Of a stretch of 64,000 bases of DNA, positions 24,560-62,995 are shown piece by piece. This stretch comes from a phage. Location of the stretch: the sequence record PX441839.1; one strand, written 5' to 3'. Position 1 is the stretch's first letter. Each line of letters begins with the position of its first letter. Both the position numbers and the translations under genes were made by a program. Under the pieces are notes generated by a model. The model was not told the DNA's origin, did no database searches, and saw only the letters and a list, made by a program, of their open reading frames with translations.

Positions 24560-26044
24560 ATGTCAGCTACTTTCGCACCTGCGAGCCGTAAGCAGCAAAT
24601 GGTTCTCGAATCTCAGGCACAGATCATGGTCATTGGTGGCGCAGCAGGTTCAGGTAAATCATACCTGCTCCAGCTTATGCCTCTCTTGATCGTAGACGAC
24701 CCCAGAACAGCATGTATCATGTTCCGTCGAACTGTCCCGCAGATTCGAGGACAAGGTGGTCTATTTGATAAGGCGAAGGATATTTACAATCAACTTCCTC
24801 CGCAAATCAAGCCAAAATTTAAAGAGAATGAGATGACTGCCACATTCCCTAACGGAGCTACCGTTAAGTGGCAATCCATGCAGCACGTTTCCGACAAATT
24901 CAACATTCAGGGTCTTGAATTTACATTTATAGGTGTAGATGAAGGAACCCAATTCGAATGGGAACAGTTGGAATACATGATGTCTCGTTTACGTTCCAAC
25001 TCGAAATACCCTTCTCGTATGGTTATTTCTTGTAACCCCGATCCTGACCACCATCTTCGTCAGATGGTTGATTGGTATCTTGATGAAGATGGCTATCCTA
25101 TTCCAGAACGAGATGGTGTTCTACGGTATTTTGTCCGTGTAGAAGATAACTACATGTGGGGTGATTCGGTCGAAGAACTGAAAGCCAGATTTGGAAGAAG
25201 ATGTAGACCTGTATCATTTACATTTATATCTTCCACGATCAAAGACAACCCACCGATGATGATCAACAACCCTGAGTATTTGGCACAGTTGGAAGGTCTT
25301 AATGACGTTGACCGTGCTAGACTTCTTCACGGCAACTGGGATGCTCGTCCAGAAGGTGCAAACTACTTTAAGAGATCTTATCTGACAGAGGTTGATGTTC
25401 TACCTATAGGATGTACAAAGGTTAGGTCTTACGATAAGGCGGGTACTGAAAGATCTACGGGTAATAAAACACCTGACTTTACAGCAGGTATTGGTGTAGC
25501 TCGTGATCAGGATGGTTTTTACTACCTTTACGGTAACTACCATGATGAGTTTATAGATGATGGTGAGTGGTCAACGATGACTATGGGCCGATTCTGTAAA
25601 AAGGTTGGAAAAAGAGACACTATCATTAAGAAACAGGCTCATATGGATGGAGATGACACGATCATTATCTTCTCCGTTGACCCTGGACAAGCAGGTTTGT
25701 CAGAATTCATGACTTCTTCAAGAGATCTTATCTCTGAGGGATTCATTGTAGAGAAAGACCCTACACCGGGCAACAAGTCAAAATTGACTCGTTTCTCACC
25801 ATTCGCCCAGCTTGCAGAGAACGGATTTGTAAGGATCGTCAAGAAGTCTTTTCCTATTGACACTTACAATGCCCTAATGAAAGAGTTGGAGCAATTTGAC
25901 GGACAGCGTTCATCCGGTACAAAAAAGGATGACTGGGCAGATGCCGTAGCCTCTGGGATAAACTACCTAGAAAAGCACGACATTGTCAGAGCCGTTGCAA
26001 TCCCCCGTCCTAATGCACCAACCATGTATTCGAGACGAAGATAA
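24560..26044 (+). CDS. terminase large subunit
   Basis: Walker A MVIGGAAGSGKSYLL near N-terminus; 494 aa; immediately precedes portal. Confidence 0.7.
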   Translation: MSATFAPASRKQQMVLESQAQIMVIGGAAGSGKSYLLQLMPLLIVDDPRTACIMFRRTVPQIRGQGGLFDKAKDIYNQLPPQIKPKFKENEMTATFPNGATVKWQSMQHVSDKFNIQGLEFTFIGVDEGTQFEWEQLEYMMSRLRSNSKYPSRMVISCNPDPDHHLRQMVDWYLDEDGYPIPERDGVLRYFVRVEDNYMWGDSVEELKARFGRRCRPVSFTFISSTIKDNPPMMINNPEYLAQLEGLNDVDRARLLHGNWDARPEGANYFKRSYLTEVDVLPIGCTKVRSYDKAGTERSTGNKTPDFTAGIGVARDQDGFYYLYGNYHDEFIDDGEWSTMTMGRFCKKVGKRDTIIKKQAHMDGDDTIIIFSVDPGQAGLSEFMTSSRDLISEGFIVEKDPTPGNKSKLTRFSPFAQLAENGFVRIVKKSFPIDTYNALMKELEQFDGQRSSGTKKDDWADAVASGINYLEKHDIVRAVAIPRPNAPTMYSRRR

Positions 26045-31481: not shown

Positions 31482-34400
31482 ATGGAATATCAAGATAAGG
31501 TCGTTGAGGTTCTGGTAACGGCTCCTGTAGCTGACGCAGGTCAGACTGCTGGTTCCGGTGGCGGAAACTTCACTGGCATTGAAACCCTCAACACGCCTTC
31601 CACATCCCTTGTTGGTAAAGGCACCCCTTCTTCACCCCTTCAATCAAACGTCAATATCTCTCGTCGTACAGGTAACAGATTAACTGTAGTTAACGATCAG
31701 AATGAGACGGGTCTTTTCGTAGGCTCTGCTGAAACAAAGATTTCAAGCAAAGCTGGAAATACGATCAAGGAAATCACCCGTACAGAAGCAGAAAACGCAG
31801 GGGACCCTTCCTTAGAGGGAATTTACTCTGCCCCGGTTAGTGAGTCTGTATCTTCCCCTAACAAGACTGTCAAGATTGCACAAGTTGCATCTGACAATTC
31901 AAAGTCTACCATTGAAGTTGCTGTTTCTGCAGCAGATAACAATGCCCTCGTTGTTGGTGAAGACGGTCTGAGTGTACCAGTGTCTAAGTCTCTTGACAAC
32001 ACACTGGAAATTCGGCAAGGTGCTCTGTATGTGCGCCCACAAGAGACCCAGATCTCTCAAGATCCTGCAAACAAGATTGAACTGAAACCTGACGGTATCT
32101 TTGTAGAAACCGTAAAAGGTGATAAGGGAGATACAGGTGAGCAAGGACCAGCAGGTCCAGAAGGTCCTCAGGGTCCAGCAGGTAAAGACGGCGCACCTGG
32201 TGTAGAAGGTCCTCGTGGACCAGAAGGTGAAAGAGGTCCGGCTGGAATCGGCATCAATGTTATTGCTCAGTTGGCAACTGTTGATCAGCTTCCTCCTGTA
32301 GAGAACTACGAAGATGGTGACACCTTCGTTATTGATGGTCACTTCTGGACTAAAACTACAGTAGGTGATACATCCCAGTGGACTGATGTCGGATCTTTCA
32401 TTGGACCAGAAGGTCTGGATGCCTATGAGGTTGCTGTACAAGATGGTTTCGAAGGTACAGTTGATGAATGGTTGGCAAGCCTTCGTGGTGCTGACGGTAT
32501 CGGTCTGCAACTCTTAGGTTCATTCAGAAGCGTTGATGACCTCCCAATGGAAGATAACAAGGCAGGTGATGCCTATATCGTCCAAGAGCAGATGTGGGTT
32601 TGGGACACTGTTCAGTGGGCACCTGTTGGACAGGTTGGCCCAGAAGGTAAGTCAGCGTATCAAGTTTGGTTGGCTAATGGTAACACTGGTTCGCAGAATG
32701 ACTTCTTGGCATCCTTAAAAGGAGAGAAAGGAGACAAGGGCGATAAAGGTGATAAAGGAGACAAGGGTGAAGACGGTAAGAACGCCAACGCCGTAAACAT
32801 TCTTGGATCTGTTGAAACCGAGGCTGACCTTCCTGACGGTGCTGATGCCGGGGACGCATACCTGATCGGAGAGAACGTATGGGTATCCGATGGCGCAGGT
32901 AAATGGACAGACCTTGGCTCTTTCCGTGGTCCAGAAGGTCCTCGTGGAGTACCTGGTGAAAAGGGTGACAAGGGCGATACTGGTGCTCAAGGTGGTACAG
33001 GTAAGAGCAACTATGACCTCGCTGTAGAGGAAGGATTCACTGGAACTGTTGCCGAATATTTGGAATCCATCAAGGGTGAAAAAGGAGACCAAGGTCCACA
33101 AGGTCCTCGTGGACTGACCGGACCTAAAGGCGACAAAGGTGACACTGGAACAGGACTTACAGTTAAAGGATCTGTTGCATCTGTAGAAGACCTACCTGCT
33201 GCTGGAAATGCAGAAGGTGATGCCTATTTCGTTGGTACTCATATGTATGTTTTCCTGTCTGGTGCATGGGAAGATGTCGGTGAGTTGAAAGGTGAAAAAG
33301 GCGATAAGGGTGACACAGGACCTAAGGGAGATACAGGCCCACAGGGTCCAGCGGGTGAGCGTGGTCCTCAGGGTGTTCAAGGTCTTAAAGGCGACACTGG
33401 CCCAGTGGGTCCTCAAGGACCAGCAGGTAGGGACGGTGTAGACGGTACAAACGGAACCGATGGTAAAGACGGAACAGGTCTGATGCCAAAAGGCACCGTT
33501 GCAACTCAGGCGGATCTCCCTGCAACTGGTAATTCTATCGGTGATTTTTATACGGTAGAAGAGGAAGGAAGGGGTTACGCTTGGAACGGAACAGAGTGGA
33601 TCTACTCCGGTGTGGCTCAGGGTCCTCAAGGACCAGCGGGTGAAAACGGTGCTGATGGTGCTACAGGTCCTCAAGGCCCACAGGGTCCTAAGGGTGACAA
33701 AGGAGACATGGGGCAAGGTATTCTGCCGAAGGGAACTGTCCCGACTCAGGCTGACCTTCCTACCGAAAACAATGAAATTGGTGACTTCTATGTTGCTGAT
33801 GACACTGGAATCGGTTACGCTTGGAATGGCACAACCTTCATTAACTCTGGGATTTCTCGTGGTAAAGACGGGGAACAAGGTCCACAGGGTGAACAGGGTA
33901 TTCAAGGTGAGCAGGGTCCTGCTGGTCCTAAGGGAGATACGGGGGATACTGGTCCTCAAGGCCCACAGGGGGATATTGGCCCAGGTGTAGAAATCATCGG
34001 TAAGCTGAATGATCCTTCTGAACTTCCGGCAACCGGAGAACTTGGTCAAGGATACCTGATCGAGGGTGACTTCTGGGGTTGGACAGGTCAAGCTTACGAG
34101 AACTTGGGACAGATTCGCGGACCTGCGGGTCCGGTTGGTCCACAAGGGAACCCAGGTCCTGTAGGTGAGCAGGGTGTTCGTGGTGAGAAGGGTGATCAAG
34201 GCTCCTTATGGATCGTCTTTGGTAGAGAACCTACTCCTGCTGATGGTCGCGTAGGTGACTACTTCATGAACTCTTCCACTCTGGAGTTCTTCCGTAAGAC
34301 TTCTGCAACCAACTGGGCATCTCTTGGTTACATGGGTGGCGGTAACGTCTACGATGCACCTAAAGATGGGAAGCAGTACACCCGTTTAGATGGTGATTGG

Positions 34401-34769
34401 GAAGTTCTTTCTGTTACTGAGGCACCTGAGGACGGTGGGTACTACATCCGTACCAATGGTCAATGGCAAAAATTAGATCGTTACGACCTCCGTGTTGTTG
34501 AAACTACAGGTGCTATGGACGTATCTGTGAGTAACTGCTTCAAGGTTGACGGGACGGCTAATAAAACCATGTCTCTCACAGGACTCCCTCCTGACAGGGC
34601 GATGACTATTGTTATTCGCTTCTTGGGTAAAGGGGCGCAGTTGACTTGGCCTTCAAACCTTGCTTGGTCAAATGGTACACCTCCTGCTCTTGGCACAACC
34701 CGTACAGTGGTAACTCTGTTCTGGGACGGTGAATTCCTGACTGGGACTCAGGCGATGACTGTTGACTAA
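31482..34769 (+). CDS. collagen-like repeat fibre protein (1095 aa)
   Basis: multiple Gly-X-Y runs (e.g. [43 protein letters not shown]) alternating with a repeated module of the form LP..N..GD.Y.V....W.W.G..W..G. Confidence 0.7.
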   Translation: MEYQDKVVEVLVTAPVADAGQTAGSGGGNFTGIETLNTPSTSLVGKGTPSSPLQSNVNISRRTGNRLTVVNDQNETGLFVGSAETKISSKAGNTIKEITRTEAENAGDPSLEGIYSAPVSESVSSPNKTVKIAQVASDNSKSTIEVAVSAADNNALVVGEDGLSVPVSKSLDNTLEIRQGALYVRPQETQISQDPANKIELKPDGIFVETVKGDKGDTGEQGPAGPEGPQGPAGKDGAPGVEGPRGPEGERGPAGIGINVIAQLATVDQLPPVENYEDGDTFVIDGHFWTKTTVGDTSQWTDVGSFIGPEGLDAYEVAVQDGFEGTVDEWLASLRGADGIGLQLLGSFRSVDDLPMEDNKAGDAYIVQEQMWVWDTVQWAPVGQVGPEGKSAYQVWLANGNTGSQNDFLASLKGEKGDKGDKGDKGDKGEDGKNANAVNILGSVETEADLPDGADAGDAYLIGENVWVSDGAGKWTDLGSFRGPEGPRGVPGEKGDKGDTGAQGGTGKSNYDLAVEEGFTGTVAEYLESIKGEKGDQGPQGPRGLTGPKGDKGDTGTGLTVKGSVASVEDLPAAGNAEGDAYFVGTHMYVFLSGAWEDVGELKGEKGDKGDTGPKGDTGPQGPAGERGPQGVQGLKGDTGPVGPQGPAGRDGVDGTNGTDGKDGTGLMPKGTVATQADLPATGNSIGDFYTVEEEGRGYAWNGTEWIYSGVAQGPQGPAGENGADGATGPQGPQGPKGDKGDMGQGILPKGTVPTQADLPTENNEIGDFYVADDTGIGYAWNGTTFINSGISRGKDGEQGPQGEQGIQGEQGPAGPKGDTGDTGPQGPQGDIGPGVEIIGKLNDPSELPATGELGQGYLIEGDFWGWTGQAYENLGQIRGPAGPVGPQGNPGPVGEQGVRGEKGDQGSLWIVFGREPTPADGRVGDYFMNSSTLEFFRKTSATNWASLGYMGGGNVYDAPKDGKQYTRLDGDWEVLSVTEAPEDGGYYIRTNGQWQKLDRYDLRVVETTGAMDVSVSNCFKVDGTANKTMSLTGLPPDRAMTIVIRFLGKGAQLTWPSNLAWSNGTPPALGTTRTVVTLFWDGEFLTGTQAMTVD

Positions 34770-34775
34770 TAAGCT

Positions 34776-34797
34776 GGGGGCTTCGGCCCCCTTTTTA
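34776..34797 (+). terminator. rho-independent terminator
   Basis: GGGGGC-TTCG-GCCCCC then TTTTT. Confidence 0.7.
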
Positions 34798-34810
34798 AAA
34801 GGAGATTTAA

Positions 34811-35461
34811 ATGGCAGTAGATCCAAACAGCAAGATTGAAGCTTGGACACCCATGATCAGAATTTCTGACATGAAATATCCAGTTTACCTGCGTGACTAT
34901 CTTGAGGAGTACAAAAACGTCAGTATCGGGTCTTTCGTGTGGGAAAGCGGGATGCGTGAGGTTGGATACTTTAAAGTCCACGATGTAGAAATCCCTATTG
35001 GGGATGTAGTCGTAGAAGGTGAACCAGCCTATAACGAGGAAGATGAACTTTGGTATAAGACTTGGATTGTCAGGGATTTCACCGAAGAGGAGATTGCTCA
35101 CAATCTCTATATGGCAAAAGAGGACGCTAAGTCTCAAGCTTATCGAATTTTTACCAATGATCAATCTTCCGGTGTTCTGGTAGATGGAGATCAGTTTAAT
35201 GTTGAGCCTCGTGAGATTACCAACTTAAGAGGTACACTCGAACTTGCCAATTTAGCAGGTGATGAGGAGAAGTTTCTTGTTCGCAAGGCAGACTTTTCAA
35301 TTCTGGAGCTTACTGCAAAAGAGACTGTTGAAAAGGTCACAAAAATAATTCTAGAGCAAGGAAAGTTACACCAAGCCCTTCTGAGCCATGTAAAAGAAAT
35401 CATGGATGCGGAAGACAGTGATTTAATCCCACCAACCCCACACACTTTCTTAGGAGAATAA
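34811..35461 (+). CDS. hypothetical protein (216 aa), possible fibre accessory protein
   Basis: ORF track; position after fibre gene. Confidence 0.45.
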   Translation: MAVDPNSKIEAWTPMIRISDMKYPVYLRDYLEEYKNVSIGSFVWESGMREVGYFKVHDVEIPIGDVVVEGEPAYNEEDELWYKTWIVRDFTEEEIAHNLYMAKEDAKSQAYRIFTNDQSSGVLVDGDQFNVEPREITNLRGTLELANLAGDEEKFLVRKADFSILELTAKETVEKVTKIILEQGKLHQALLSHVKEIMDAEDSDLIPPTPHTFLGE

Positions 35462-35462
35462 T

Positions 35463-35813
35463 ATGTCTGCAATCGGCGGAACATCTTTAGGTCTGATTAC
35501 TGGCTATGCGATCATGGATCAGTCAACTGGTGAAACAAAAACCATCTCCGAGTTACTCAGTGGTGCTGGGGGCGGCACACCGGGTCCTGTTGGACCTAAG
35601 GGAGATCAGGGTGAAGTTGGACCTCAAGGACCTAAGGGCGACACAGGCCCTGCTGGACCGCAGGGTCCTCAAGGGGAGCAGGGTGTAGGTATTGCACATG
35701 CCAATACAAAAATTGATGGACGTAATGTAACCATTATGTTTACGATGACGGATAACACAGTGAAAGAAGTTGTTTTCACAATTCCTGAACCAACCCCGAC
35801 CCCCTCTGCCTGA
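35463..35813 (+). CDS. small collagen-like protein (116 aa)
   Basis: [34 protein letters not shown]; N-terminus paralogous to next gene. Confidence 0.5.
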   Translation: MSAIGGTSLGLITGYAIMDQSTGETKTISELLSGAGGGTPGPVGPKGDQGEVGPQGPKGDTGPAGPQGPQGEQGVGIAHANTKIDGRNVTIMFTMTDNTVKEVVFTIPEPTPTPSA

Positions 35814-35825
35814 TATATTTACACC

Positions 35826-35848
35826 ACCGCCCTTCGGGGCGGTTTTCT
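35826..35848 (+). terminator. rho-independent terminator
   Basis: ACCGCCC-TTCG-GGGCGGT then TTTTCTT. Confidence 0.6.
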
Positions 35849-35870
35849 TGTATCTGCTTAAGGAGAAATT

Positions 35871-36545
35871 ATGGCAAAGCTTAAGGGTATTACTGGAAAT
35901 CAAAATGGGGTATTCTATGGTTATGCCCTCTATGATTTAAAATCTGAGAAGCTTATTCCTTTTAATGAGATTGGGGTAGGAGGCGGAGAAGCAGAGCAAG
36001 GTCCGGTAGGTCCTGTTGGACCACAAGGACCTAAAGGTGACAAAGGTGATCCTGGACCTCAAGGTTTGAGAGGTCCTCAAGGTCCTCAGGGACCTAAAGG
36101 TGATCCTGGCGCAAAGGGTGATGAAGGGATCGATGGTGCTGTTGGACCACAAGGTCCAAAAGGGGATAGGGGAGAACCAGGACCAGAAGGACCACAAGGT
36201 CCAATCGGACCCCGTGGACCAGTGGGACCTGCGGGAGCGACGGGTCTTAACTGGAAGGGACAGTATTCTGACTCTGTTACTTATCTTCTTGACGACGCTG
36301 TCGCGTTTAATGGTGCAACCTACTTTTCTGTCAAGGAGTCAACAGGGATAAGCCCAGCGGAAGATACAGTTCAAGAATACTGGGCTGTAATGGCAGCTTC
36401 TGGGGTAAAGGGAGACCAAGGTCCACAAGGTCCCGTGGGACCAGTGGGTCCTCAAGGTGAAAGAGGTGAACAGGGTATTCAAGGACCGAGAGGTCCAGTT
36501 GGAGAGACAGGACCTGCTGGACCTCGCGGACCGGAAGGGATTTAG
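35871..36545 (+). CDS. collagen-like protein ending at an in-frame amber codon (224 aa)
   Basis: long Gly-X-Y runs; TAG at 36543-36545 sits in the Y position of a GXY triplet (...GPEGI*GPQGPQG...). Confidence 0.55.
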
Positions 36546-36860
36546 GGACCACAGGGACCTCAAGGTATTCAGGGTCCTCAAGGTAAAAAGGGAGTTAATT
36601 GGAGGGGGAACTGGTTTAGAAACACCACATACACGAAAGATGACGCTGTTTATTTTGAAGGTACGAGTTGGATTTGCGATATAGACCATTCCTCGTCAGA
36701 TGACAATAAACCGGGAAGCCCTCAAAGATTTAAGTGGGCAGTTTTCGCCAAGAAAGGGGAAGACGGTCCTCAAGGACCTGCGGGAGAGCCAAAGAAAATC
36801 AACCATGTACTTCGGAATTGCTCCTGGAAATGGGGTGACATCATTCCTTGGACTTCCTAA
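36546..36860 (+). other. possible amber-readthrough extension of collagen-like gene (about 104 codons)
   Basis: same frame stays open to TAA at 36858-36860 and encodes a second copy of the upstream module (GVNWRGNWFRNTTYTKDDAVYFEG...FKWAVFAKKGEDGPQGPAG versus [24 protein letters not shown]...[20 protein letters not shown]). Confidence 0.4.
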
Positions 36861-42203: not shown

Positions 42204-42238
42204 GGCCACGGTCGAAAGACCCTGGCCTTTTTCTTTTT
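42204..42238 (+). terminator. possible terminator
   Basis: imperfect hairpin GGCCA...TGGCC then TTTTTCTTTTT. Confidence 0.35.
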
Positions 42239-42248
42239 GGAGGGTATA

Positions 42249-44726
42249 ATGGCTTCGAGCAACCAGATCGTAACTAAAACGGTCAACAGGACTACGTTTG
42301 AAGTTGATAAGGCTTCATATAATAGTACGATCAAGAAAATACGCAGCGTCAAGAAGGAATGGGAAAAGGCAGGTGAGCCTATCTCAAAACCTAAGAATGA
42401 CCCTGCAAAGCAGTACAGTAGATCTGCCGAACAGATCAAACTTGTGAATAAGCGTCTCATGGAGACCCGCAAGAGAGAAGAAGAACGTGCAGTTGCTCAT
42501 AGCCTTGCCCTCGCTAAGAAAGAGGCTCGTGCCAAAGAGCAGATTCAGAAGCAGTCTGCGGCTCGTATCCGTCAAACTATGAATCAGATGACTGCAAAGA
42601 ACCCGCAAGCCGCTGAAATGAGGAAGTTTTATCAGCAGCAGGAGAGGGAGGCCAAGAAAGCCAGTCGTCGTATGCAGAATACCTCTCCAACTCCACTTGG
42701 ACCAATGAATATTCAGCGTATGAACTCTGTTCAGCTTCCTCCTAGGGGTGGTGCTGGAACAGGTATGATTGGGAATCCTAACAAGCCATATTCTCCAGAG
42801 ACGATAGCCAGGCAGAACGCAGAAATGGCAAGAGCTATTCGTCAGCAATCCAAACAAAAAGATAAAGCTACAGCAGAGCAGACAAGAAAGGCAAGGATCG
42901 AAGCAAACAGGCAAGCACGTATTCAGGACGTGATGGCACAGCAAAGGATCAGACTGTCTAGCAAGTACGGAAGCACATACAACTCAACACTTGGAAGGGA
43001 TAGCGCTGGAAGAGGTATCCAAGACCTTAACAGACAGTTTAAATCCGGCGCTCTGTCGGCTGGACAGTATAGACAAAGCATACAAGCACTTGAACGCCAG
43101 TTTAGGGCATCTCAAGGTGCAGCAATGTCTTTCGGTAGTGTCTTGGAGAACGTCAGAACAGGACTTGTTAGTGTTGGTGCCGCATATGGGGTATTCAACT
43201 CTGGTGCCGCTGTTCTTCAACAAGGTCAGTTCTTCCAGGGGCTTGAGGCATCCATGCTTATGGTGTCTAACTCCTCAGAAGAGGCTGCGGGAAGAATACA
43301 GTTTGTCCGTGATGAGTCCTACAGATTAGGTCTTTCTCTTAAAGAAGCTTCTCAGGGATATACCCAGATGGCTATCGCGGGTAAAGAACTGATGAGCGGA
43401 GATCAGTTGAACAGTTTGTTCTCTGCGTACTCTGAATACTCAACAGCCTTGCAAGTTGACCCTGTAAGATTCCAGCGCGGTATCATGGCTATCCAGCAGA
43501 TGATGGGTAAAGGCCAGGTAATGGCGGAAGAATTGAAGGGGCAGTTGTCAGAAGCAATACCTGGTTCACTGGACATCTTTGTTAAGGCGGCACAGGAGGC
43601 ATTTAACGATACCTCTATAGATACTGCCAAATTCATGAAGATGATGGAAAAAGGTGAAATCACGGCTAAAAAGCTTATGCCTCTGATCGGCAAGTATTTC
43701 AGCGAAGCAGCTAACCGTGGTGGTGCTCTGGAGAAAGCCTTGCAGGGGAACCGTGTTGCTATGCAGCGTATGCAGCAGTCATGGGTTAACATGCAGAACG
43801 CTATCTTCATGGGTGGATTCGGCGATGCAATGACTAAGATATTCAACGACCTCTCTCGTCTCATGGAAACAAACATGGACACTGCAAAGAGTTTCGGTGA
43901 AATACTCGGTCAATTAATCACTGGTGCCTGGGATGCCGCAACCGCAGTATACAACGCATTCGTGTTCATGGGCAGGGCAATTGAATACTTTGCGGAGAAG
44001 CTGGGTTACGAGGGCGACATACTCTCTGAAATGTTCGACTGGGCAGCGTATGTTGCAGGTGTCGGTCTGTTTATCATGGCCCTTAAGAAGGTGTACGGGA
44101 TTGTCTCATCAATCGCGGGACTGAGAGGAGCATTAGGCGGAGTCCGAGACGCATTGGGCGGAGACTTGGCGTCGGGAGGCAGAGCAGGAGGTCCAAATAC
44201 CGGAGGAAGAGGAGGAAGTCCTTGGGGAAGACCTTCTGGAGGCAGCGGAGGAGGCTGGCTTGGTAAGATCGGGGGAGGTCTAAAAGGACTTGGTGGATTT
44301 GCTCTGAGAAGAAACCCATATGTTACCGCAGCGATGATCGTCGGTGGTGAACAGCTTCTCAGTGAGGAGGGCCAGGCCAGAGGAAAGGCAATAGCTGATG
44401 CTATGGCACCGTCAAGGGATCTTCAAAACCCACTTGCGGCTGCAACTGGCGGTGACATGTCAACTCTTATGGCCCTAGCGTGGAACAGCTTGTCAGGTGG
44501 AGGATCTAAACCATCTCCTAACATAGACCCAGACAGGTTAGCGCAGAACGCTGTAGTTCAGACTAACCCGTTCCCATACCCACTCCCGCTTGCGGCACAG
44601 CAACAGCAAGAAGGTAAGATTACGGTTGAAATCAAGGCTGGTGATCTTAAGCAGTATATTCGTGCGGTTGTTGATGAGAATAACATGATGAACTTTAACT
44701 TGTTAACTCAAGGTGGTCAAGGATAA
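42249..44726 (+). CDS. tail tape measure protein
   Basis: about 825 aa, Ala/Gln/Arg-rich N-terminal helical region, Gly-rich C-terminal stretch, position after chaperone; ORF track start 42237 is a TTG. Confidence 0.65.
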   Translation: MASSNQIVTKTVNRTTFEVDKASYNSTIKKIRSVKKEWEKAGEPISKPKNDPAKQYSRSAEQIKLVNKRLMETRKREEERAVAHSLALAKKEARAKEQIQKQSAARIRQTMNQMTAKNPQAAEMRKFYQQQEREAKKASRRMQNTSPTPLGPMNIQRMNSVQLPPRGGAGTGMIGNPNKPYSPETIARQNAEMARAIRQQSKQKDKATAEQTRKARIEANRQARIQDVMAQQRIRLSSKYGSTYNSTLGRDSAGRGIQDLNRQFKSGALSAGQYRQSIQALERQFRASQGAAMSFGSVLENVRTGLVSVGAAYGVFNSGAAVLQQGQFFQGLEASMLMVSNSSEEAAGRIQFVRDESYRLGLSLKEASQGYTQMAIAGKELMSGDQLNSLFSAYSEYSTALQVDPVRFQRGIMAIQQMMGKGQVMAEELKGQLSEAIPGSLDIFVKAAQEAFNDTSIDTAKFMKMMEKGEITAKKLMPLIGKYFSEAANRGGALEKALQGNRVAMQRMQQSWVNMQNAIFMGGFGDAMTKIFNDLSRLMETNMDTAKSFGEILGQLITGAWDAATAVYNAFVFMGRAIEYFAEKLGYEGDILSEMFDWAAYVAGVGLFIMALKKVYGIVSSIAGLRGALGGVRDALGGDLASGGRAGGPNTGGRGGSPWGRPSGGSGGGWLGKIGGGLKGLGGFALRRNPYVTAAMIVGGEQLLSEEGQARGKAIADAMAPSRDLQNPLAAATGGDMSTLMALAWNSLSGGGSKPSPNIDPDRLAQNAVVQTNPFPYPLPLAAQQQQEGKITVEIKAGDLKQYIRAVVDENNMMNFNLLTQGGQG

Positions 44727-59619: not shown

Positions 59620-59654
59620 ATAAAAAGGCTCCCGAATGGGAGCCTTTTCTTTTA
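59620..59654. terminator. bidirectional rho-independent terminator
   Basis: AAGGCTCCC-GAAT-GGGAGCCTT flanked by A-run and T-run between convergent genes. Confidence 0.65.
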
Positions 59655-59658
59655 TGTA

Positions 59659-60858
59659 TTACAGGACATAAATCACGTGGTTAGGATATTGAAGCCCTAC
59701 CGGAGCGAAGGGGATGTCATCATCGAAATCCATAACATCTGGGGTGTAGTCCAGATGACCATCATCGCTTACCGGAACTTGAGGATTAGTATCCTGAGGT
59801 TTTTGTTCCAGTTGAGGTTCAGGGGCTTTTTCTGGAGACGCGTCTTTCCGAACAAGGTCTTCTGTCGCATTGATGAATCGGAAGGTTGTTTCCACATTCT
59901 CAATAAACTGATCAATACCTTCTTGACTGTGTCGAGCAGCCAAGATACCGGATTGGCCCAGACGAGCACCAAACGCATAATCATCCATACCTTTGAACTC
60001 TTCCCGCAGCTTGGCCTTGATGGTATCCATAGCTTTCAGAACCTGCACCACAATAATTTGCTGATCGACGATAGCTGCATTTGGGAACATTGCATCTGTG
60101 ATAGTCAGTGCGTTGCCTAAACGAATCGGCAAGTCATCCTTTCCACCTTTACGGGAACCACCTGCACCACCTGCACCTTTTGGACCATAAGCCTTGAAAG
60201 CACTGATTGAACCATCAGCCGCCCGCTGACCAGCCAAACGACCACCCTCTTGGATCTGGGAGAGTTGCTCGTCTGACAGCTTAACGGTAACATCGCCATT
60301 ATCTGTCTTCACTACAACGTCTGAGCCGCTCACAGAGACGATTTCTCCGTAAACCTTAGTGGTTGCACCACCTGCACCTTGAGAGCCTCCCTGAGGTGTC
60401 TGAGAGCCTTGCGGAGCTACATCTCGAGCACCAGATGCATCGGTAATTTTAATTTTGTTCTTTTTACCCTCGGTGGAGGTTCGTTCATTACCCTCTCGGT
60501 CTTTGTAATATTTAACCTGCACTGGTAGACGAATCTTCATGCCTGGTTTAAGGCTTACATATTTGTCACCTTCTTTGATCTGGAACTGATCTTCGTATTT
60601 CAAGTTCTTAACTTCACCTTCTCCAAAAGAGATCCAAGCTGAATCTTCACCTTCTTTCAACAGGATAGAATAGCGATGGGTAGACTTGATAGTCTTACCT
60701 GCATTTGGACCCTTGTTGATGTGGGTGATTTTAGGACTACCGTCCTCATTGATACGTTTGATATTGATACGTTCAATTGTTCCAGCGGCGACGTGTACAG
60801 TCACATCATTAACAGCATCATAAACAGAGTTAACAACTTGAATTTTAACTTCGGACAT
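59659..60858 (-). CDS. SSB-like protein with acidic MDFDDDIPF motif
   Basis: near-C-terminal DVMDFDDDIPF identical to the E. coli SSB acidic tip, preceded by Gly/Gln-rich linker, but followed by 15 more residues (APVGLQYPNHVIYVL). Confidence 0.45.
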   Translation of the reverse strand: MSEVKIQVVNSVYDAVNDVTVHVAAGTIERINIKRINEDGSPKITHINKGPNAGKTIKSTHRYSILLKEGEDSAWISFGEGEVKNLKYEDQFQIKEGDKYVSLKPGMKIRLPVQVKYYKDREGNERTSTEGKKNKIKITDASGARDVAPQGSQTPQGGSQGAGGATTKVYGEIVSVSGSDVVVKTDNGDVTVKLSDEQLSQIQEGGRLAGQRAADGSISAFKAYGPKGAGGAGGSRKGGKDDLPIRLGNALTITDAMFPNAAIVDQQIIVVQVLKAMDTIKAKLREEFKGMDDYAFGARLGQSGILAARHSQEGIDQFIENVETTFRFINATEDLVRKDASPEKAPEPQLEQKPQDTNPQVPVSDDGHLDYTPDVMDFDDDIPFAPVGLQYPNHVIYVL

Positions 60859-61306: not shown

Positions 61307-61371
61307 GGTGAAATCTCCTTTCATTAAGTTATGGGTCTATTATATAAGACCCACCTCAATTAAGTCAACAC

Positions 61372-61728
61372 TTAAATACTTTTCTCAAAGCCTTCCGCTT
61401 GGAAGTAGGCTGTTTTCTCAGAGGTCTCAATTGAGAAACTTACCTGGGACAGTTCAGCAGCCAAGTGAGCAGCAATCTGTTTTGCCATGTGGACAATCAT
61501 ACCTTCTTCTTTTGGGAAGCGAGGGTACTGGATAAGTCGCACAGTAAACCCCTTTTCCATCCCTCCCGTATAGATATAGTCAGTTTTAGTAAGCTGAATA
61601 CATCCTCGCTCCGCATGGGTAAGGTACTTCCTAAGAATATGACGAGCAAAGTCAATATCCCCTGCCATGTGGATCGTCACATAGAATGTTTTCTCGGTTG
61701 CCTTTTGAACGAAATTTACATTAGCCAC
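61372..61728 (-). CDS. hypothetical protein (118 aa)
   Basis: ORF track. Confidence 0.4.
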   Translation of the reverse strand: MANVNFVQKATEKTFYVTIHMAGDIDFARHILRKYLTHAERGCIQLTKTDYIYTGGMEKGFTVRLIQYPRFPKEEGMIVHMAKQIAAHLAAELSQVSFSIETSEKTAYFQAEGFEKSI

Positions 61729-62112
61729 TTATTTTCTCCCCTTCTTACGGTGATAAACTCCACGTTTGGACAGAGGAATTTCCTCTGCATCTCTTCCATC
61801 AACACCATCTTCACCAGGTTCACCTTGAGGACCCATTGGACCTGCTGGTCCCATTGGCCCCATAGGTCCTACAGGTCCAGTGACAACACGAATGTCTTTA
61901 GGTTTGTACAGAGAATAACCCAAGCATCCAAACCAACCGATAAGTGTAATTACGCTCGGAGGCAAAAGGAAGAAGATAACAGTAAAGACAGAGATCATCC
62001 ACTTATTCCTGTGATCCTTCTTCCATGCGATAATTATTGGGGAAAAACTAATTGCCAATAAAATTAACAGAAAAACAAGACCGAGAGTGATGGCAGCTTC
62101 TGCAATTATCAT
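61729..62112 (-). CDS. membrane protein with short collagen-like segment
   Basis: two hydrophobic segments followed by TGPVGPMGPMGPAGPMGPQGEPGEDGVDG. Confidence 0.4.
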   Translation of the reverse strand: MIIAEAAITLGLVFLLILLAISFSPIIIAWKKDHRNKWMISVFTVIFFLLPPSVITLIGWFGCLGYSLYKPKDIRVVTGPVGPMGPMGPAGPMGPQGEPGEDGVDGRDAEEIPLSKRGVYHRKKGRK

Positions 62113-62390
62113 TAACGAAGACCCTCTTTGATTTTAAGTTCAATCAACCCTGCATCCAGGGTATACATGTATCCAGTGTTATCCCGAAAGTAACAAAGGA
62201 CTCCCTTGGGTTCGGATTTTCTTACTATGACCCGACCCCTTTGATAACCAGGTTGTGTTTCACAAACCTTGTACAGTTCCTGAATACGGGAAGGCAGAAT
62301 AGTATGAGAATTCTTGTACTTATCCTCACCTTCTTCCAGACACCCTGTCAAAAGTACAGAGCACAGTAGTGCAATAATTAACTTTTTCAT
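62112..62390 (-). CDS. lipoprotein
   Basis: MKKLIIALLCSVLLTGC signal peptide with lipobox; ORF track 62112..62426. Confidence 0.45.
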   Translation of the reverse strand: MKKLIIALLCSVLLTGCLEEGEDKYKNSHTILPSRIQELYKVCETQPGYQRGRVIVRKSEPKGVLCYFRDNTGYMYTLDAGLIELKIKEGLR

Positions 62391-62563
62391 GCGCAGAATG
62401 CCGCCACAATTAGTGAAAAGGGCCACACGATCCCGAAAATTACAGAGGGTCCTTTGTCAATTCTGCAAAATCGACGATAGAATAGTCGCCCTGCTCCAAC
62501 ACTGATCAGGATATAGAGTAAAGATACAAGTAACTCAAGTGCATATAATGTTAAAAAATTCAT
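62387..62563 (-). CDS. small membrane protein (about 58 aa)
   Basis: Not in ORF track (under 60 aa); hand translation MNFLTLYALELLVSLLYILISVGAG...IVWPFSLIVAAFCA; stop overlaps lipoprotein start (ATGA). Confidence 0.3.
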   Translation of the reverse strand: MNFLTLYALELLVSLLYILISVGAGRLFYRRFCRIDKGPSVIFGIVWPFSLIVAAFCA

Positions 62564-62565
62564 AA

Positions 62566-62943
62566 TCAGATTCCTTTTCTTTCTCTGCGTTTACGGCGGA
62601 TATCCTCTTCAACCTCTACCTCAGCCTTGTCGATAATCTCGTATACGGACGGAACTGATTCAGATGGGGAAAACATCTTGTGCAGGTTCCTGACCATCAT
62701 TACCAACTTCCCCCTTACCTTGAAATCATATCTCCAAGATCTAAAGTGGAAGCAATCATGACGCCATTGGAACATATAGCATATCTCTTTTGCACGGTTA
62801 CGAGTAACACCCAGTAAGTTTGCAAACTCTCCATGAGGATCTCCATTTGGATCTCCAAGAATATATGCTGTTGCCCAATGCTTCTTCGCCAAGTTGTACT
62901 CTTCAACCGTCATGTTTACTTTCGTGTTCATATTGCCCTCCAA
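62566..62943 (-). CDS. hypothetical protein (125 aa)
   Basis: ORF track. Confidence 0.4.
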   Translation of the reverse strand: MEGNMNTKVNMTVEEYNLAKKHWATAYILGDPNGDPHGEFANLLGVTRNRAKEICYMFQWRHDCFHFRSWRYDFKVRGKLVMMVRNLHKMFSPSESVPSVYEIIDKAEVEVEEDIRRKRRERKGI

Positions 62944-62995
62944 GATACTCTACTCCAAGATTATGGGGAGTATAACGCCCCTTGTCAACAATTAC

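What the first reader, a model, noticed from the sequence alone, without database searches (positions are those of the whole stretch)
61729..62563. Membrane protein, lipoprotein and membrane-anchored collagen-like protein as a coupled trio
An unannotated 58-aa two-helix membrane protein (62387..62563) overlaps by ATGA a lipoprotein gene (62112..62390), which abuts a membrane protein with a GPxGPxG collagen-like tail (61729..62112). This looks like a second spanin-like or envelope-modifying module, perhaps superinfection exclusion.
Basis: seen in the sequence. Interest (0 to 1): 0.5.

Follow-up and report, generated by a model that had tools for sequence, protein, structure and literature searches.

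The report
Imm-like envelope gene trio in phage
Three overlapping, probably early genes of a Salmonella rV5-like phage encode a tiny membrane protein, a periplasmic lipoprotein and a relative of phage T4's Imm protein with a collagen-like stalk; they most likely stop other phages from injecting DNA into an infected cell and are not a second spanin.

Summary
On the minus strand, A (62387..62563, 58 aa, two hydrophobic helices), B (62112..62390, lipobox LLTG|C) and C (61729..62112, membrane core plus 10 GXY triplets) overlap by ATGA and TAATG. The window is 99% identical to Salmonella phage SSBI34 (Vequintavirinae).

The trio is not chance. It recurs with the same overlaps in every intact related locus I read. 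The small ORF varies mainly at third codon positions.

C's membrane core is homologous to T4 Imm (hhalign 96.9%, E 1.8e-10), which a 2026 preprint shows binds the tape measure protein to block genome entry. C adds a stalk of variable length (11-87 aa) that ends in an invariant peptide, G(K/R)DADEIPLSKxGV.

B is a confident alpha/beta domain (pLDDT 85) with two conserved cysteines and no known structural relative.

The phage's real spanin pair lies at 23240..23928, next to the terminase gene, so the "second spanin" reading fails. The superinfection-exclusion reading is supported by homology only.

Two things remain unresolved: which side of the membrane the stalk is on, and what A and B do.

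Verdict: a new variant of a known kind (an Imm-type exclusion module), of moderate interest.

The parts
62960..62988 (-). Sigma-70-like promoter (TTGACA-17-CATAAT, 11/12) in the gap upstream of the five-gene block
   Evidence: The overall number of promoter-like sites is not above shuffled expectation, so this is a lead, not proof. A second 11/12 site at 61339..61368 follows the block, and a site at the equivalent position recurs in 10 of 11 related loci scanned.
62566..62943 (-). orf125, the first gene of the block. Soluble, function unknown. It is the conserved upstream neighbour of the trio. Its start codon is uncertain.
   Evidence: phrog_16320 E 9e-14. Homologues sit directly upstream of A in the Certrevirus and Septuagintavirus loci. 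Its stop lies 2 nt before A's ATG.
62387..62563 (-). Gene A: 58-aa membrane micro-protein with two hydrophobic helices and a basic loop (RLFYRRFCRIDK). It is preceded by an AAGGA ribosome-binding site.
   Evidence: It is a positional homologue of the 48-51-aa ORFs (MLIAPETFVILF...AG.RF.YW...) in all intact loci. Third-position substitution bias is 103:53:283. Weak hit to phrog_6756, E 0.002.
62112..62390 (-). Gene B: 92-aa lipoprotein precursor. The signal peptide plus lipobox Cys17 span 62340..62390. The mature alpha-beta3-alpha domain spans 62115..62339 and has two invariant Cys (C43, C66).
61729..62112 (-). Gene C: 127-aa Imm-like inner-membrane protein with a collagen-like stalk and a conserved C-terminal peptide.
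61897..62076 (-). C residues 13-72: the Imm-homologous membrane core (P25, A29, K32, H34, R35, N36, P51).
   Evidence: hhalign against eight T-even and other Imm proteins aligns this stretch to T4 Imm residues 15-66 with probability 96.9%, E 1.8e-10. The AF2 model has helices 2-31, 37-49 and 52-69 at pLDDT 81-94. PF14373 scores 24.0 bits against a gathering score of 27.9; 14 of 34 family members hit it at E <= 0.01.
61789..61878 (-). C residues 79-108: 10 uninterrupted GXY triplets, the collagen-like stalk.
   Evidence: Pfam Collagen E 1.8e-5. Across the family the stalk is 11-87 aa, with runs of 3-10 GXY triplets or inserted SAYExY...WLESLRG tail-fibre-like modules.
61732..61791 (-). C residues 108-127: terminal peptide DAEEIPLSKRGVYHRKKGRK (family consensus G[KR]DADEIPLSKxGVLKPR).
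   Evidence: Invariant columns G106, D108, A109, E111, P113, L114, S115, G118 and V119 across 34 sequences. It is the only part of the tail that is conserved.
61372..61728 (-). orf118, the last gene of the block. Soluble, phrog_4848, unannotated in SSBI34. Probably co-transcribed, but not part of the conserved core.
   Evidence: (E 5.4e-40). It also follows the Imm-like gene in Serratia phage Kashira. In Certrevirus loci it is absent or replaced by another gene.

Best explanation
The trio is an envelope-located superinfection-exclusion module, probably expressed early, and built around a divergent homologue of phage T4 Imm.

Shown:
- A, B and C are real genes, conserved together and joined by overlapping stop/start codons.
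- C's three-helix membrane core is homologous to T4 Imm.
- B has a lipoprotein signal peptide and a confident small alpha/beta fold with two invariant cysteines.
- The phage's true spanins are elsewhere in the window.

Inferred from T4 (bioRxiv 10.64898/2026.03.06.709160):
- C sits in the inner membrane with its acidic N-terminus in the periplasm.
- It binds the tape measure protein of an incoming related phage (this phage's own is at 42237..44726), so that the genome-translocation pore cannot form.

Inferred from anatomy:
- The Gly/Pro-rich stalk of variable length is a spacer that holds out the invariant terminal peptide DADEIPLSKxGV.
- That peptide's most likely partner is the co-translated, co-conserved periplasmic protein B.
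- B may play a role analogous to T4 Spackle, which is a second, periplasmic layer of exclusion.
- A is a small inner-membrane partner.

The side of the membrane on which the stalk lies is not settled. I put periplasmic at about 55% and cytoplasmic at about 45%.
For: Identity and context:
- The window is 99.2% identical to Salmonella phage SSBI34, Vequintavirinae.

Imm homology:
- PF14373 E 3.6e-5 and phrog_1039 'immunity to superinfection' E 9.6e-8.
- 14 of 34 family members hit PF14373.
- hhalign, C family against bona fide Imm proteins: 96.9%, E 1.8e-10, aligning P25/A29/K32 with T4 P26/A30/R33.
- R33 and the H2-H3 loop are functionally important in T4.
- AF2 gives the same pattern of one long helix plus two short ones, broken at P50-P51.
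- UniRef already names the CR8 and PBES 02 homologues 'Superinfection immunity protein'.

N-terminus outside:
- The first 8 residues of the 34 family members contain 0 K/R and 41 D/E in total. The following loop carries about 4 K/R.

Coupling of the genes:
- The trio with ATGA/GTGA overlaps is present in the window and 13 related loci.
- The B-C overlap also persists in the distant phage ABPH49. There B has a signal or anchor sequence but no lipobox (hhalign 96.5%), and A is absent.

Early-type context:
- An 11/12 sigma-70-like promoter precedes the block, which is a run of small genes on the strand opposite the structural genes.
- In phage CB7, the only virion protein that mass spectrometry assigned to the corresponding genome region is CB7_55.

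Analogy with other phages:
- Other imm genes are followed by spackle (AV116) or by tiny membrane ORFs (PSD2001, Acinetobacter phage SR).
Against: - No experiment addresses this family, so the function rests on remote homology of a 52-column membrane segment.
- The window protein scores below Pfam's gathering threshold (24.0 against 27.9 bits).
- It lacks the loop tryptophan that matters in T4. The window has LLPPSV where most relatives have SMWPALW.
- PF14373 also occurs in many proteins of unknown role.
- If C copies the T4 arrangement in which the H2-H3 loop faces the periplasm, the stalk would be cytoplasmic and could not touch B.
- The window protein has 3 K/R just after helix 3, which fits that alternative.
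- B shows no similarity to Spackle, Llp, Cor, Ltp or the entry-exclusion lipoproteins.
- B's +2 residue varies (D in 18, N in 10, other in 6 of 34), so its membrane location is not uniform across the family.
Confidence: 0.55

Rival explanations
1. The trio is a second spanin-like or otherwise lysis-related module. An inner-membrane protein with a periplasmic rod (C) and an outer-membrane lipoprotein (B) would bridge and then fuse or disrupt the envelope at lysis, with A acting as a holin-like partner.
For: There is a superficial architectural resemblance: a membrane-anchored extended protein plus a lipoprotein with overlapping genes. The signal-peptide region of B gives a weak hit to phrog_812 'Rz-like spanin', E 0.0094, residues 1-38 only. 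The window's B has Leu at +2, which would send it to the outer membrane.
Against: - A canonical pair is present at 23240..23608 (phrog_4297, E 5.6e-18) and 23608..23928 (phrog_1267, E 2.5e-21), beside the terminase gene. This matches the published description for Certrevirus, rV5 and PVP-SE1.
- C's anchor is an Imm-type three-helix core, not a single N-in/C-out helix followed by a coiled coil.
- The stalk varies from 11 to 87 aa, so it cannot span a fixed periplasmic distance.
- B is a compact folded domain.
- 18 of 34 B homologues have Asp at +2, and ABPH49's homologue is not a lipoprotein at all.
- No endolysin or holin gene lies nearby, and the block has a sigma-70-like promoter.
Confidence: 0.04
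2. The Imm-like core is only a membrane anchor and the Gly/Pro-rich tail is cytoplasmic. The module then does something other than block DNA entry. It might tether a host or phage cytoplasmic factor to the membrane through the DADEIPLSK peptide, or protect or remodel the envelope (for example resistance to lysis from without, or lysis timing). B and A would act on the periplasmic face.
For: - In the T4 Imm-tape measure complex the H2-H3 loop faces the incoming protein, which implies that helix 3 returns towards the cytoplasm.
- C's helices 2 and 3 are short (13 and 18 residues) and broken at Pro-Pro.
- The tail end is strongly basic (HRKKGRK; KPRKG in relatives), and the window protein has 3 K/R right after helix 3.
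- Phage collagen-like and fibre modules fold in the cytoplasm.
- T4 imm and sp mutants also affect lysis inhibition and lysis from without.
Against: - In most family members there are 0-1 K/R in the 12 residues after helix 3, against about 4 in the preceding loop.
- Helices 2 and 3 together (33 residues) match the length of helix 1 (30 residues), as expected for a two-span N-out/C-out protein.
- The strict coupling of C with a secreted protein, even in ABPH49, is most simply explained if the conserved tail peptide and B meet in the periplasm.
- No cytoplasmic partner motif was identified. The motif resembles the SSB tip (DDDIPF) only loosely, and it is internal.
Confidence: 0.25
3. The three genes are neighbours without a joint mechanism. 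C alone would be the Imm-type exclusion protein. B would be an independent periplasmic factor, for example a receptor or lysozyme blocker. A would be an unrelated small membrane peptide.
For: - A is absent from the ABPH49/Kashira lineage, and B is frameshifted in Kashira, while C is intact in both.
- In Septuagintavirus-type phages a 62-67-aa gene is inserted between B and C.
- T4 Imm works when expressed alone.
Against: - Stop/start overlaps are kept in the window and 13 related loci.
- The B-C overlap persists even after B lost its lipobox.
- B and C families have the same narrow distribution: 35 and 34 clusters, on the same roughly 140-150 kb phage contigs.
- In the ABPH49/Kashira lineage, where B lacks the lipobox (and is frameshifted in Kashira), C's terminal peptide has diverged to GKDAIPMSKAGNLY. 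This hints that B and that peptide are linked.
Confidence: 0.15

Closest known systems
Phage T4 Imm (Pfam PF14373 Imm_superinfect). It binds the tape measure protein gp29 and blocks genome translocation (bioRxiv 10.64898/2026.03.06.709160).
   Same: - Homologous membrane core (hhalign 96.9%).
- Conserved P-x3-A-x2-(R/K) motif, including the equivalent of T4 R33.
- An acidic N-terminus with no K/R.
- A pattern of one long helix followed by two short ones.
- Encoded by a virulent myovirus, among small genes behind a sigma-70-like promoter.
   Different: - C is 127 aa, against 83 aa for T4 Imm.
- It has a 6-residue insertion in the H2-H3 loop.
- In the window protein there is no Trp at the position of T4 W50.
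- It carries a 50-120-aa extension that T-even Imm proteins lack: a collagen-like stalk plus an invariant terminal peptide.
- It is always coupled to a secreted protein.
T4 Imm plus Spackle (Sp), a two-layer exclusion system
   Same: An inner-membrane Imm-type protein is paired with a small exported protein with conserved cysteines. In Mosigvirus AV116, imm and sp are adjacent genes.
Two-component spanins (lambda Rz/Rz1, T4 PseT.3/PseT.2)
   Same: Overlapping genes encode a membrane-anchored extended protein and a lipoprotein.
   Different: See the membership test below. The anchor type, the fold of the lipoprotein, the sorting signal and the genomic context all differ. The real spanin pair is at 23240..23928.
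Exclusion lipoproteins: T5 Llp, phi80/N15 Cor, TP-J34 Ltp, plasmid TrbK/EexN
   Same: All are small lipoproteins made by a mobile element to keep a competitor's DNA out.
   Different: Only the signal-peptide region matches:
- Cor phrog_1119, residues 1-22, E 9e-4.
- EexN, 18 bits against a cut-off of 33, hit by only 2 of 34 family members.
- No structural match.
HK97 gp15
   Same: An inner-membrane exclusion protein proposed to act on the tape measure protein (cited).
   Different: No sequence relationship was detected or tested here.

Membership tests
T4 Imm / PF14373 Imm_superinfect | Significant sequence-profile similarity to bona fide Imm proteins | tested here: met
   hhalign of the 34-member C alignment against 8 Imm proteins (T4, Mosigvirus, Gaprivervirus, Dhakavirus, Klebsiella, Acinetobacter, Deseoctovirus and Gordonia phages) gives probability 96.9%, E 1.8e-10, over 52 columns. 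phrog_1039 E 9.6e-8.
T4 Imm / PF14373 Imm_superinfect | Single-sequence score above Pfam's curated gathering threshold | tested here: inconclusive
   The window protein scores 24.0 bits against a gathering score of 27.9, E 3.6e-5. 14 of 34 relatives hit at E <= 0.01, best 3.8e-6. T4 Imm itself scores 58.3 bits. This is a curated cut-off rather than a biological feature. It shows that the branch is divergent.
T4 Imm / PF14373 Imm_superinfect | Conserved core motif P-x3-A-x2-R (T4 R33 is needed for activity) and a helix 1 / short helix 2 / helix 3 architecture | tested here: met
   P25 and A29 are invariant. Position 32 is R in at least 90% of the family and K in the window. The AF2 model has helices 2-31, 37-49 and 52-69 at pLDDT 81-94.
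T4 Imm / PF14373 Imm_superinfect | Tryptophan in the H2-H3 loop (T4 W50) that contacts the tape measure protein | tested here: inconclusive
   Most relatives have SMWPxLW in an enlarged loop. The window protein has LLPPSV, with no Trp. hhalign places a 6-residue insertion here.
T4 Imm / PF14373 Imm_superinfect | Blocks genome entry of secondary phage and binds the tape measure protein | not testable with these tools
   This needs plating-efficiency and DNA-entry assays, and co-purification with the product of 42237..44726 (identified as the tape measure protein).
Two-component spanin (Rz/Rz1 type) | i-spanin: a single N-terminal transmembrane helix (N-in/C-out) followed by a periplasmic coiled coil | tested here: not met
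   C has an Imm-type three-helix core with an acidic N-terminus and a Gly/Pro-rich stalk of variable length.
Two-component spanin (Rz/Rz1 type) | o-spanin: a small, largely unstructured, proline-rich outer-membrane lipoprotein | tested here: not met
   B folds as alpha-beta3-alpha, with block pLDDT of 86-98 over residues 21-90. Asp is at +2 in 18 of 34 homologues. The ABPH49 homologue lacks the lipobox.
Two-component spanin (Rz/Rz1 type) | Matches spanin profiles, and fills a spanin role that is otherwise vacant in the genome | tested here: not met
   Only residues 1-38 of B touch phrog_812, at E 0.0094. Strong spanin matches belong to 23240..23608 and 23608..23928.
Bacterial lipoprotein (signal peptidase II substrate) | Basic n-region, hydrophobic h-region and a lipobox [LVI][ASTVI][GAS]C within the first ~25 residues | tested here: met
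   B begins MKK-LIIALLCSVL-LTG|C. G16 and C17 are invariant in 34 homologues.
Bacterial lipoprotein (signal peptidase II substrate) | Lipid modification and membrane location | not testable with these tools
   This needs globomycin sensitivity, palmitate labelling and membrane fractionation. The +2 rule predicts the outer membrane for the window protein (Leu) but the inner membrane for about half the family.
Collagen triple-helix repeat (PF01391) | An uninterrupted run of GXY triplets rich in Pro | tested here: met
   There are 10 triplets, GPV GPM GPM GPA GPM GPQ GEP GED GVD GRD. The Pfam score is 24.8 bits, below the gathering score of 27.2. Some relatives have only 3-4 triplets, so a stable triple helix is not assured.
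Exclusion lipoproteins (Cor, EexN, TrbK) | Profile match that extends beyond the signal peptide | tested here: not met
   The matches are sub-threshold, confined to or dominated by residues 1-22 or 1-49, and hit by only 2 of 34 members.

The most novel reading that the evidence does not exclude
The Imm-like protein is a trimer whose collagen-like stalk projects into the periplasm and docks, through its invariant DADEIPLSKxGV peptide, onto lipoprotein B. Together with micro-protein A this forms a raised 'tripwire' above the inner membrane that captures the tape measure protein or tail tip of an incoming phage before it reaches the bilayer. That would be a three-component exclusion machine with no described counterpart, and the first function for a membrane-anchored collagen-like protein in a phage-infected cell.
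Probability: 0.2. Interest if true: 0.7.

Novelty: new variant of a known kind. Interest (0 to 1): 0.45.

Why it matters
Imm is a classic superinfection-exclusion protein, but its mechanism (binding the tape measure protein) was proposed only in 2026, and only for T4.

This family shows that the same membrane core has been built into a larger, strictly conserved cassette in another group of large virulent myoviruses. These include Certrevirus, Septuagintavirus and SSBI34-like phages that infect Salmonella, E. coli, Cronobacter, Pectobacterium, Klebsiella and Enterobacter, and several of them are being developed for biocontrol.

If the cassette excludes related phages, it bears on how such phages can be combined in cocktails. 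It would also offer a natural experiment on how Imm-type proteins are tuned to different tape measure proteins.

The lipoprotein is a confident new small fold with no known relative. The variable stalk ending in an invariant peptide is an unusually clear candidate for an interaction motif that can be tested directly.

Tried and rejected
1. Spanin reading. Rejected after locating the canonical pair at 23240..23928 and after the fold and sorting-signal analysis of B.
2. B as a Cor, EexN or TrbK type exclusion lipoprotein. Only signal-peptide-level, sub-threshold hits, in 2 of 34 members.
4. Structural relatives of C in BFVD. None were informative.
5. PDB sequence searches for B and C. Nothing below E 0.1.
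6. PADLOC defence models. No hit for any of the five proteins.
7. Wider distribution. The single-sequence search for C found only SSBI34. The profile search of 1.84 billion representatives for B found 14 hits, about 12 of them credible family clusters. A scan of 185,579 bacterial and archaeal genomes for G[KR]DADEIPL found no relative. No tblastn hit fell in a record named as or classified in Vequintavirus (rV5 type).
8. Whether the terminal peptide occurs elsewhere. A degenerate DNA scan of IMG/VR found it only in family members, in one probable chance hit, and as DADEIPLSKAG inside an unrelated 686-aa tail-like protein from one metagenome. I treat the last as coincidence. One further match (L029) did not show the motif in the printed excerpt and was not examined further.
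9. Similarity of C's tail to this phage's own collagen-rich virion proteins (31482..36600). They share only generic GXY repeats.
10. The experimental topology of T4 Imm (Lu et al. 1993) could not be read, because the paper is not held. The side of the membrane on which the tail lies is therefore left open.
Full report
**What is there.** The window is 99.2% identical over this region to Salmonella phage SSBI34, a 141-kb member of the Vequintavirinae. On the minus strand five ORFs are packed without gaps:
- orf125 (62566..62943).
- A (62387..62563, 58 aa).
- B (62112..62390, 92 aa).
- C (61729..62112, 127 aa).
- orf118 (61372..61728).

A's stop overlaps B's start (ATGA), and B's stop overlaps C's start (TAATG). 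A has two hydrophobic helices around a basic loop. B starts MKKLIIALLCSVLLTG|C, a textbook lipoprotein signal. C has a hydrophobic N-terminal half, then ten uninterrupted GXY triplets (61789..61878) and a charged end. A and orf118 are not annotated in the GenBank record.

**Is it real?** Yes.
- tblastn and protein searches find B and C only in large virulent myoviruses of this subfamily: Certrevirus, the A5-4 (Septuagintavirus) group, SSBI34, and roughly 135-155 kb metagenomic contigs.
- In the window and 13 related loci (about 11 distinct phages) the order small ORF - lipoprotein - Imm-like gene is kept, almost always with 4-nt ATGA/GTGA overlaps. In two loci my script missed the small ORF, and I found it by eye.
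- Among the 50-codon versions of A, pairwise substitutions fall 103:53:283 on codon positions 1, 2 and 3 (excluding one mis-registered sequence). The small ORF is therefore under purifying selection as a protein. The window's A is only 20-25% identical to the others but keeps the E...V...AG.R.FY pattern and the same position.
- B's family is tiny. A profile search of 1.84 billion cluster representatives returned 14 hits.

**What C is.**
- Pfam gives two sub-threshold hits: Imm_superinfect (24.0 bits, gathering score 27.9) and Collagen.
- PHROGs gives phrog_15593 (unknown function) and phrog_1039 'immunity to superinfection' at E 9.6e-8.
- I built an alignment of 34 family members and one of eight bona fide Imm proteins, including T4. 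hhalign relates them with 96.9% probability, E 1.8e-10, aligning C residues 13-72 to T4 Imm 15-66.
- The P-x3-A-x2-(R/K) motif is conserved. Its basic residue corresponds to T4 R33, which a 2026 preprint shows is needed for exclusion.
- AlphaFold2 predicts a long helix (2-31), a five-residue basic loop, a short helix (37-49), a Pro-Pro break and a third helix (52-69). All are confident. The tail is disordered in the monomer model.
- The ABPH49/Kashira lineage has a version with a more canonical Imm motif (NLQIAGILWLAALIWSL), which links the two groups.

I therefore accept C as a divergent member of the Imm superfamily. What it adds is the tail: a Gly/Pro-rich stalk of 11-87 residues (median 23), with 3-10 GXY triplets, sometimes with SAYExY...WLESLRG modules like those of tail fibres. 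It ends in a peptide that is invariant across all 34 sequences, G(K/R)DADEIPLSKxGV(L/V)KPR.

**What B is.**
- With 34 homologues, AlphaFold2 gives a confident model (mean pLDDT 85, with 10-residue block means of 94-98 over residues 31-90). It is a small alpha-beta-beta-beta-alpha domain.
- Two cysteines (C43, C66) are invariant, as expected for a disulfide-bonded periplasmic protein. This is inference.
- The residue after the lipidated Cys is Asp in 18 of 34 homologues, Asn in 10 and other in 6; it is Leu in the window. By the enterobacterial +2 rule (established knowledge), about half the family would stay in the inner membrane.
- In phage ABPH49 the B homologue (hhalign 96.5%) has a signal or anchor sequence but no lipobox cysteine. 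It still overlaps the C homologue.

The constant features are therefore export to the periplasm and coupling to C, not outer-membrane anchoring.

**Why it is not a spanin.**
- The window contains a canonical pair directly upstream of the large terminase gene. The first is 23240..23608, with an N-terminal transmembrane helix and a charged coil (phrog_4297 'Rz-like spanin', E 5.6e-18). The second is 23608..23928, with lipobox IIMG|C (phrog_1267, E 2.5e-21). This is exactly the arrangement published for Certrevirus, rV5 and PVP-SE1 (PMC7344957).
- C's anchor, B's fold, B's sorting signal and the variable stalk length all fail the spanin definition (see the membership table).

**Expression context.**
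- A TTGACA-17-CATAAT site (11/12) lies in the gap upstream of orf125. A second 11/12 site follows orf118, and a strong bidirectional terminator closes the block at 59622..59649.
- The total number of promoter-like sites is not above chance. However, a site at the position of the second one recurs in 10 of 11 related loci scanned.
- The block runs opposite to the tail-fibre genes, in a region of small genes.
- Mass spectrometry of the Certrevirus CB7 virion assigned only one virion protein, CB7_55, to that genome region. I did not map the trio's CB7 homologues by tag.

Early transcription by host RNA polymerase is thus likely but not shown.

**Mechanism.** The preprint 10.64898/2026.03.06.709160 reports the following:
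- T4 Imm co-purifies with the helical-bundle and transmembrane part of the tape measure protein.
- Imm's N-terminus faces the periplasm.
- The loop between helices 2 and 3 contacts the tape measure protein.
- W50A and R33A mutations weaken exclusion.

By homology, I propose that C blocks genome translocation of secondary, related phages at the inner membrane. The likely target class is the tape measure protein; this phage's own is at 42237..44726. Because the only conserved part of the tail is its last 16 residues, and the spacer length is free, the tail looks like a tether that presents a binding peptide. The co-translated, co-distributed periplasmic protein B is the obvious candidate partner. 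In ABPH49 and Kashira the peptide is divergent (GKDAIPMSKAGNLY); in that lineage B lacks the lipobox, and in Kashira it is also frameshifted. This is a weak hint of linkage.

Other phages place spackle or tiny membrane ORFs right after imm. A composite 'Imm plus periplasmic factor plus micro-membrane protein' module therefore has loose precedents. All of this paragraph beyond the homology is inference.

**The main open point is topology.**
- For a periplasmic tail: the N-terminal eight residues of the 34 sequences contain no K/R and 41 D/E; the loop has about four K/R; most members have 0-1 K/R just after helix 3; and helices 2+3 (33 residues) match helix 1 (30 residues) in length.
- For a cytoplasmic tail: in T4 the H2-H3 loop faces the incoming protein, which implies a hairpin; the window protein has three K/R after helix 3; and the extreme C-terminus is basic.

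I could not read the 1993 topology paper. I rate a periplasmic tail at about 55%.

**Novelty and score.**
- No paper in the library discusses these genes. UniRef auto-names two homologues 'Superinfection immunity protein'.
- The Imm kinship is therefore already implicit in the databases.
- What appears undescribed is the conserved three-gene cassette, the stalk-plus-invariant-peptide architecture, and the orphan fold of the lipoprotein.

This is a new variant of a known kind. It is testable with simple plasmid and knock-out experiments, of moderate interest, and not a second spanin.

Noticed in passing
window 59659..60858 (-): The 399-aa protein (phrog_4477, unknown function) contains MDFDDDIPF 17 residues before its C-terminus. 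From my own knowledge, this is identical to the C-terminal tip of E. coli SSB, the hub for SSB-interacting proteins. It may be a phage SSB-like protein or a mimic that recruits or competes for host SSB partners.
   Followed up: no
window 23240..23608 and 23608..23928 (+): This is the canonical i-spanin/o-spanin pair, with a stop/start overlap, directly upstream of the large terminase gene (24560..26044) and not in a lysis cassette. It matches the published arrangement for Certrevirus, rV5 and PVP-SE1.
   Followed up: yes
window 61372..61728 (-): A 118-aa ORF (phrog_4848, E 5e-40) is unannotated in the SSBI34 record. It starts immediately after C's stop codon. A homologue also follows the Imm-like gene in Serratia phage Kashira (L033 1707..2063).
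   Followed up: partly
window ~36537 (+), within 35871..36600: An in-frame stop interrupts a collagen-like ORF (…[15 protein letters not shown]…). It could be a split gene, a sequencing error or read-through. The region 31482..36800 encodes very long collagen-like virion proteins.
   Followed up: no
L017 (Escherichia phage AV116), L018 (PSD2001), L021 (Acinetobacter phage SR): Genes that follow imm homologues in other phages include spackle (AV116), a 47-aa two-helix membrane ORF with a 4-nt overlap (PSD2001) and a 37-aa one-helix ORF (SR). Imm-type genes may commonly travel with small envelope partners.
   Followed up: partly
L025, L026, L028 (IMG/VR contigs from metagenome 3300045988): The 11-residue string DADEIPLSKAG, identical to the family's terminal peptide, occurs inside the C-terminal domain of an unrelated 686-aa tail-like protein. 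It is probably a coincidence, but it is unexplained.
   Followed up: partly
L034 1321..1988 (Acinetobacter phage ABPH49); L033 (Serratia phage Kashira): In this distant Vequintavirinae lineage the B homologue has no lipobox cysteine and no small ORF A precedes it, yet it still overlaps an Imm-like collagen-tailed gene. In Kashira the B gene is split by a frameshift.
   Followed up: partly
L006 2754..2942 (phage A5-4); L013 2790..2993: In Septuagintavirus-type phages a 62-67-aa soluble protein gene is inserted between B and C. There, C's tail carries two tail-fibre-like SAYExY…WLxSLxG modules.
   Followed up: no
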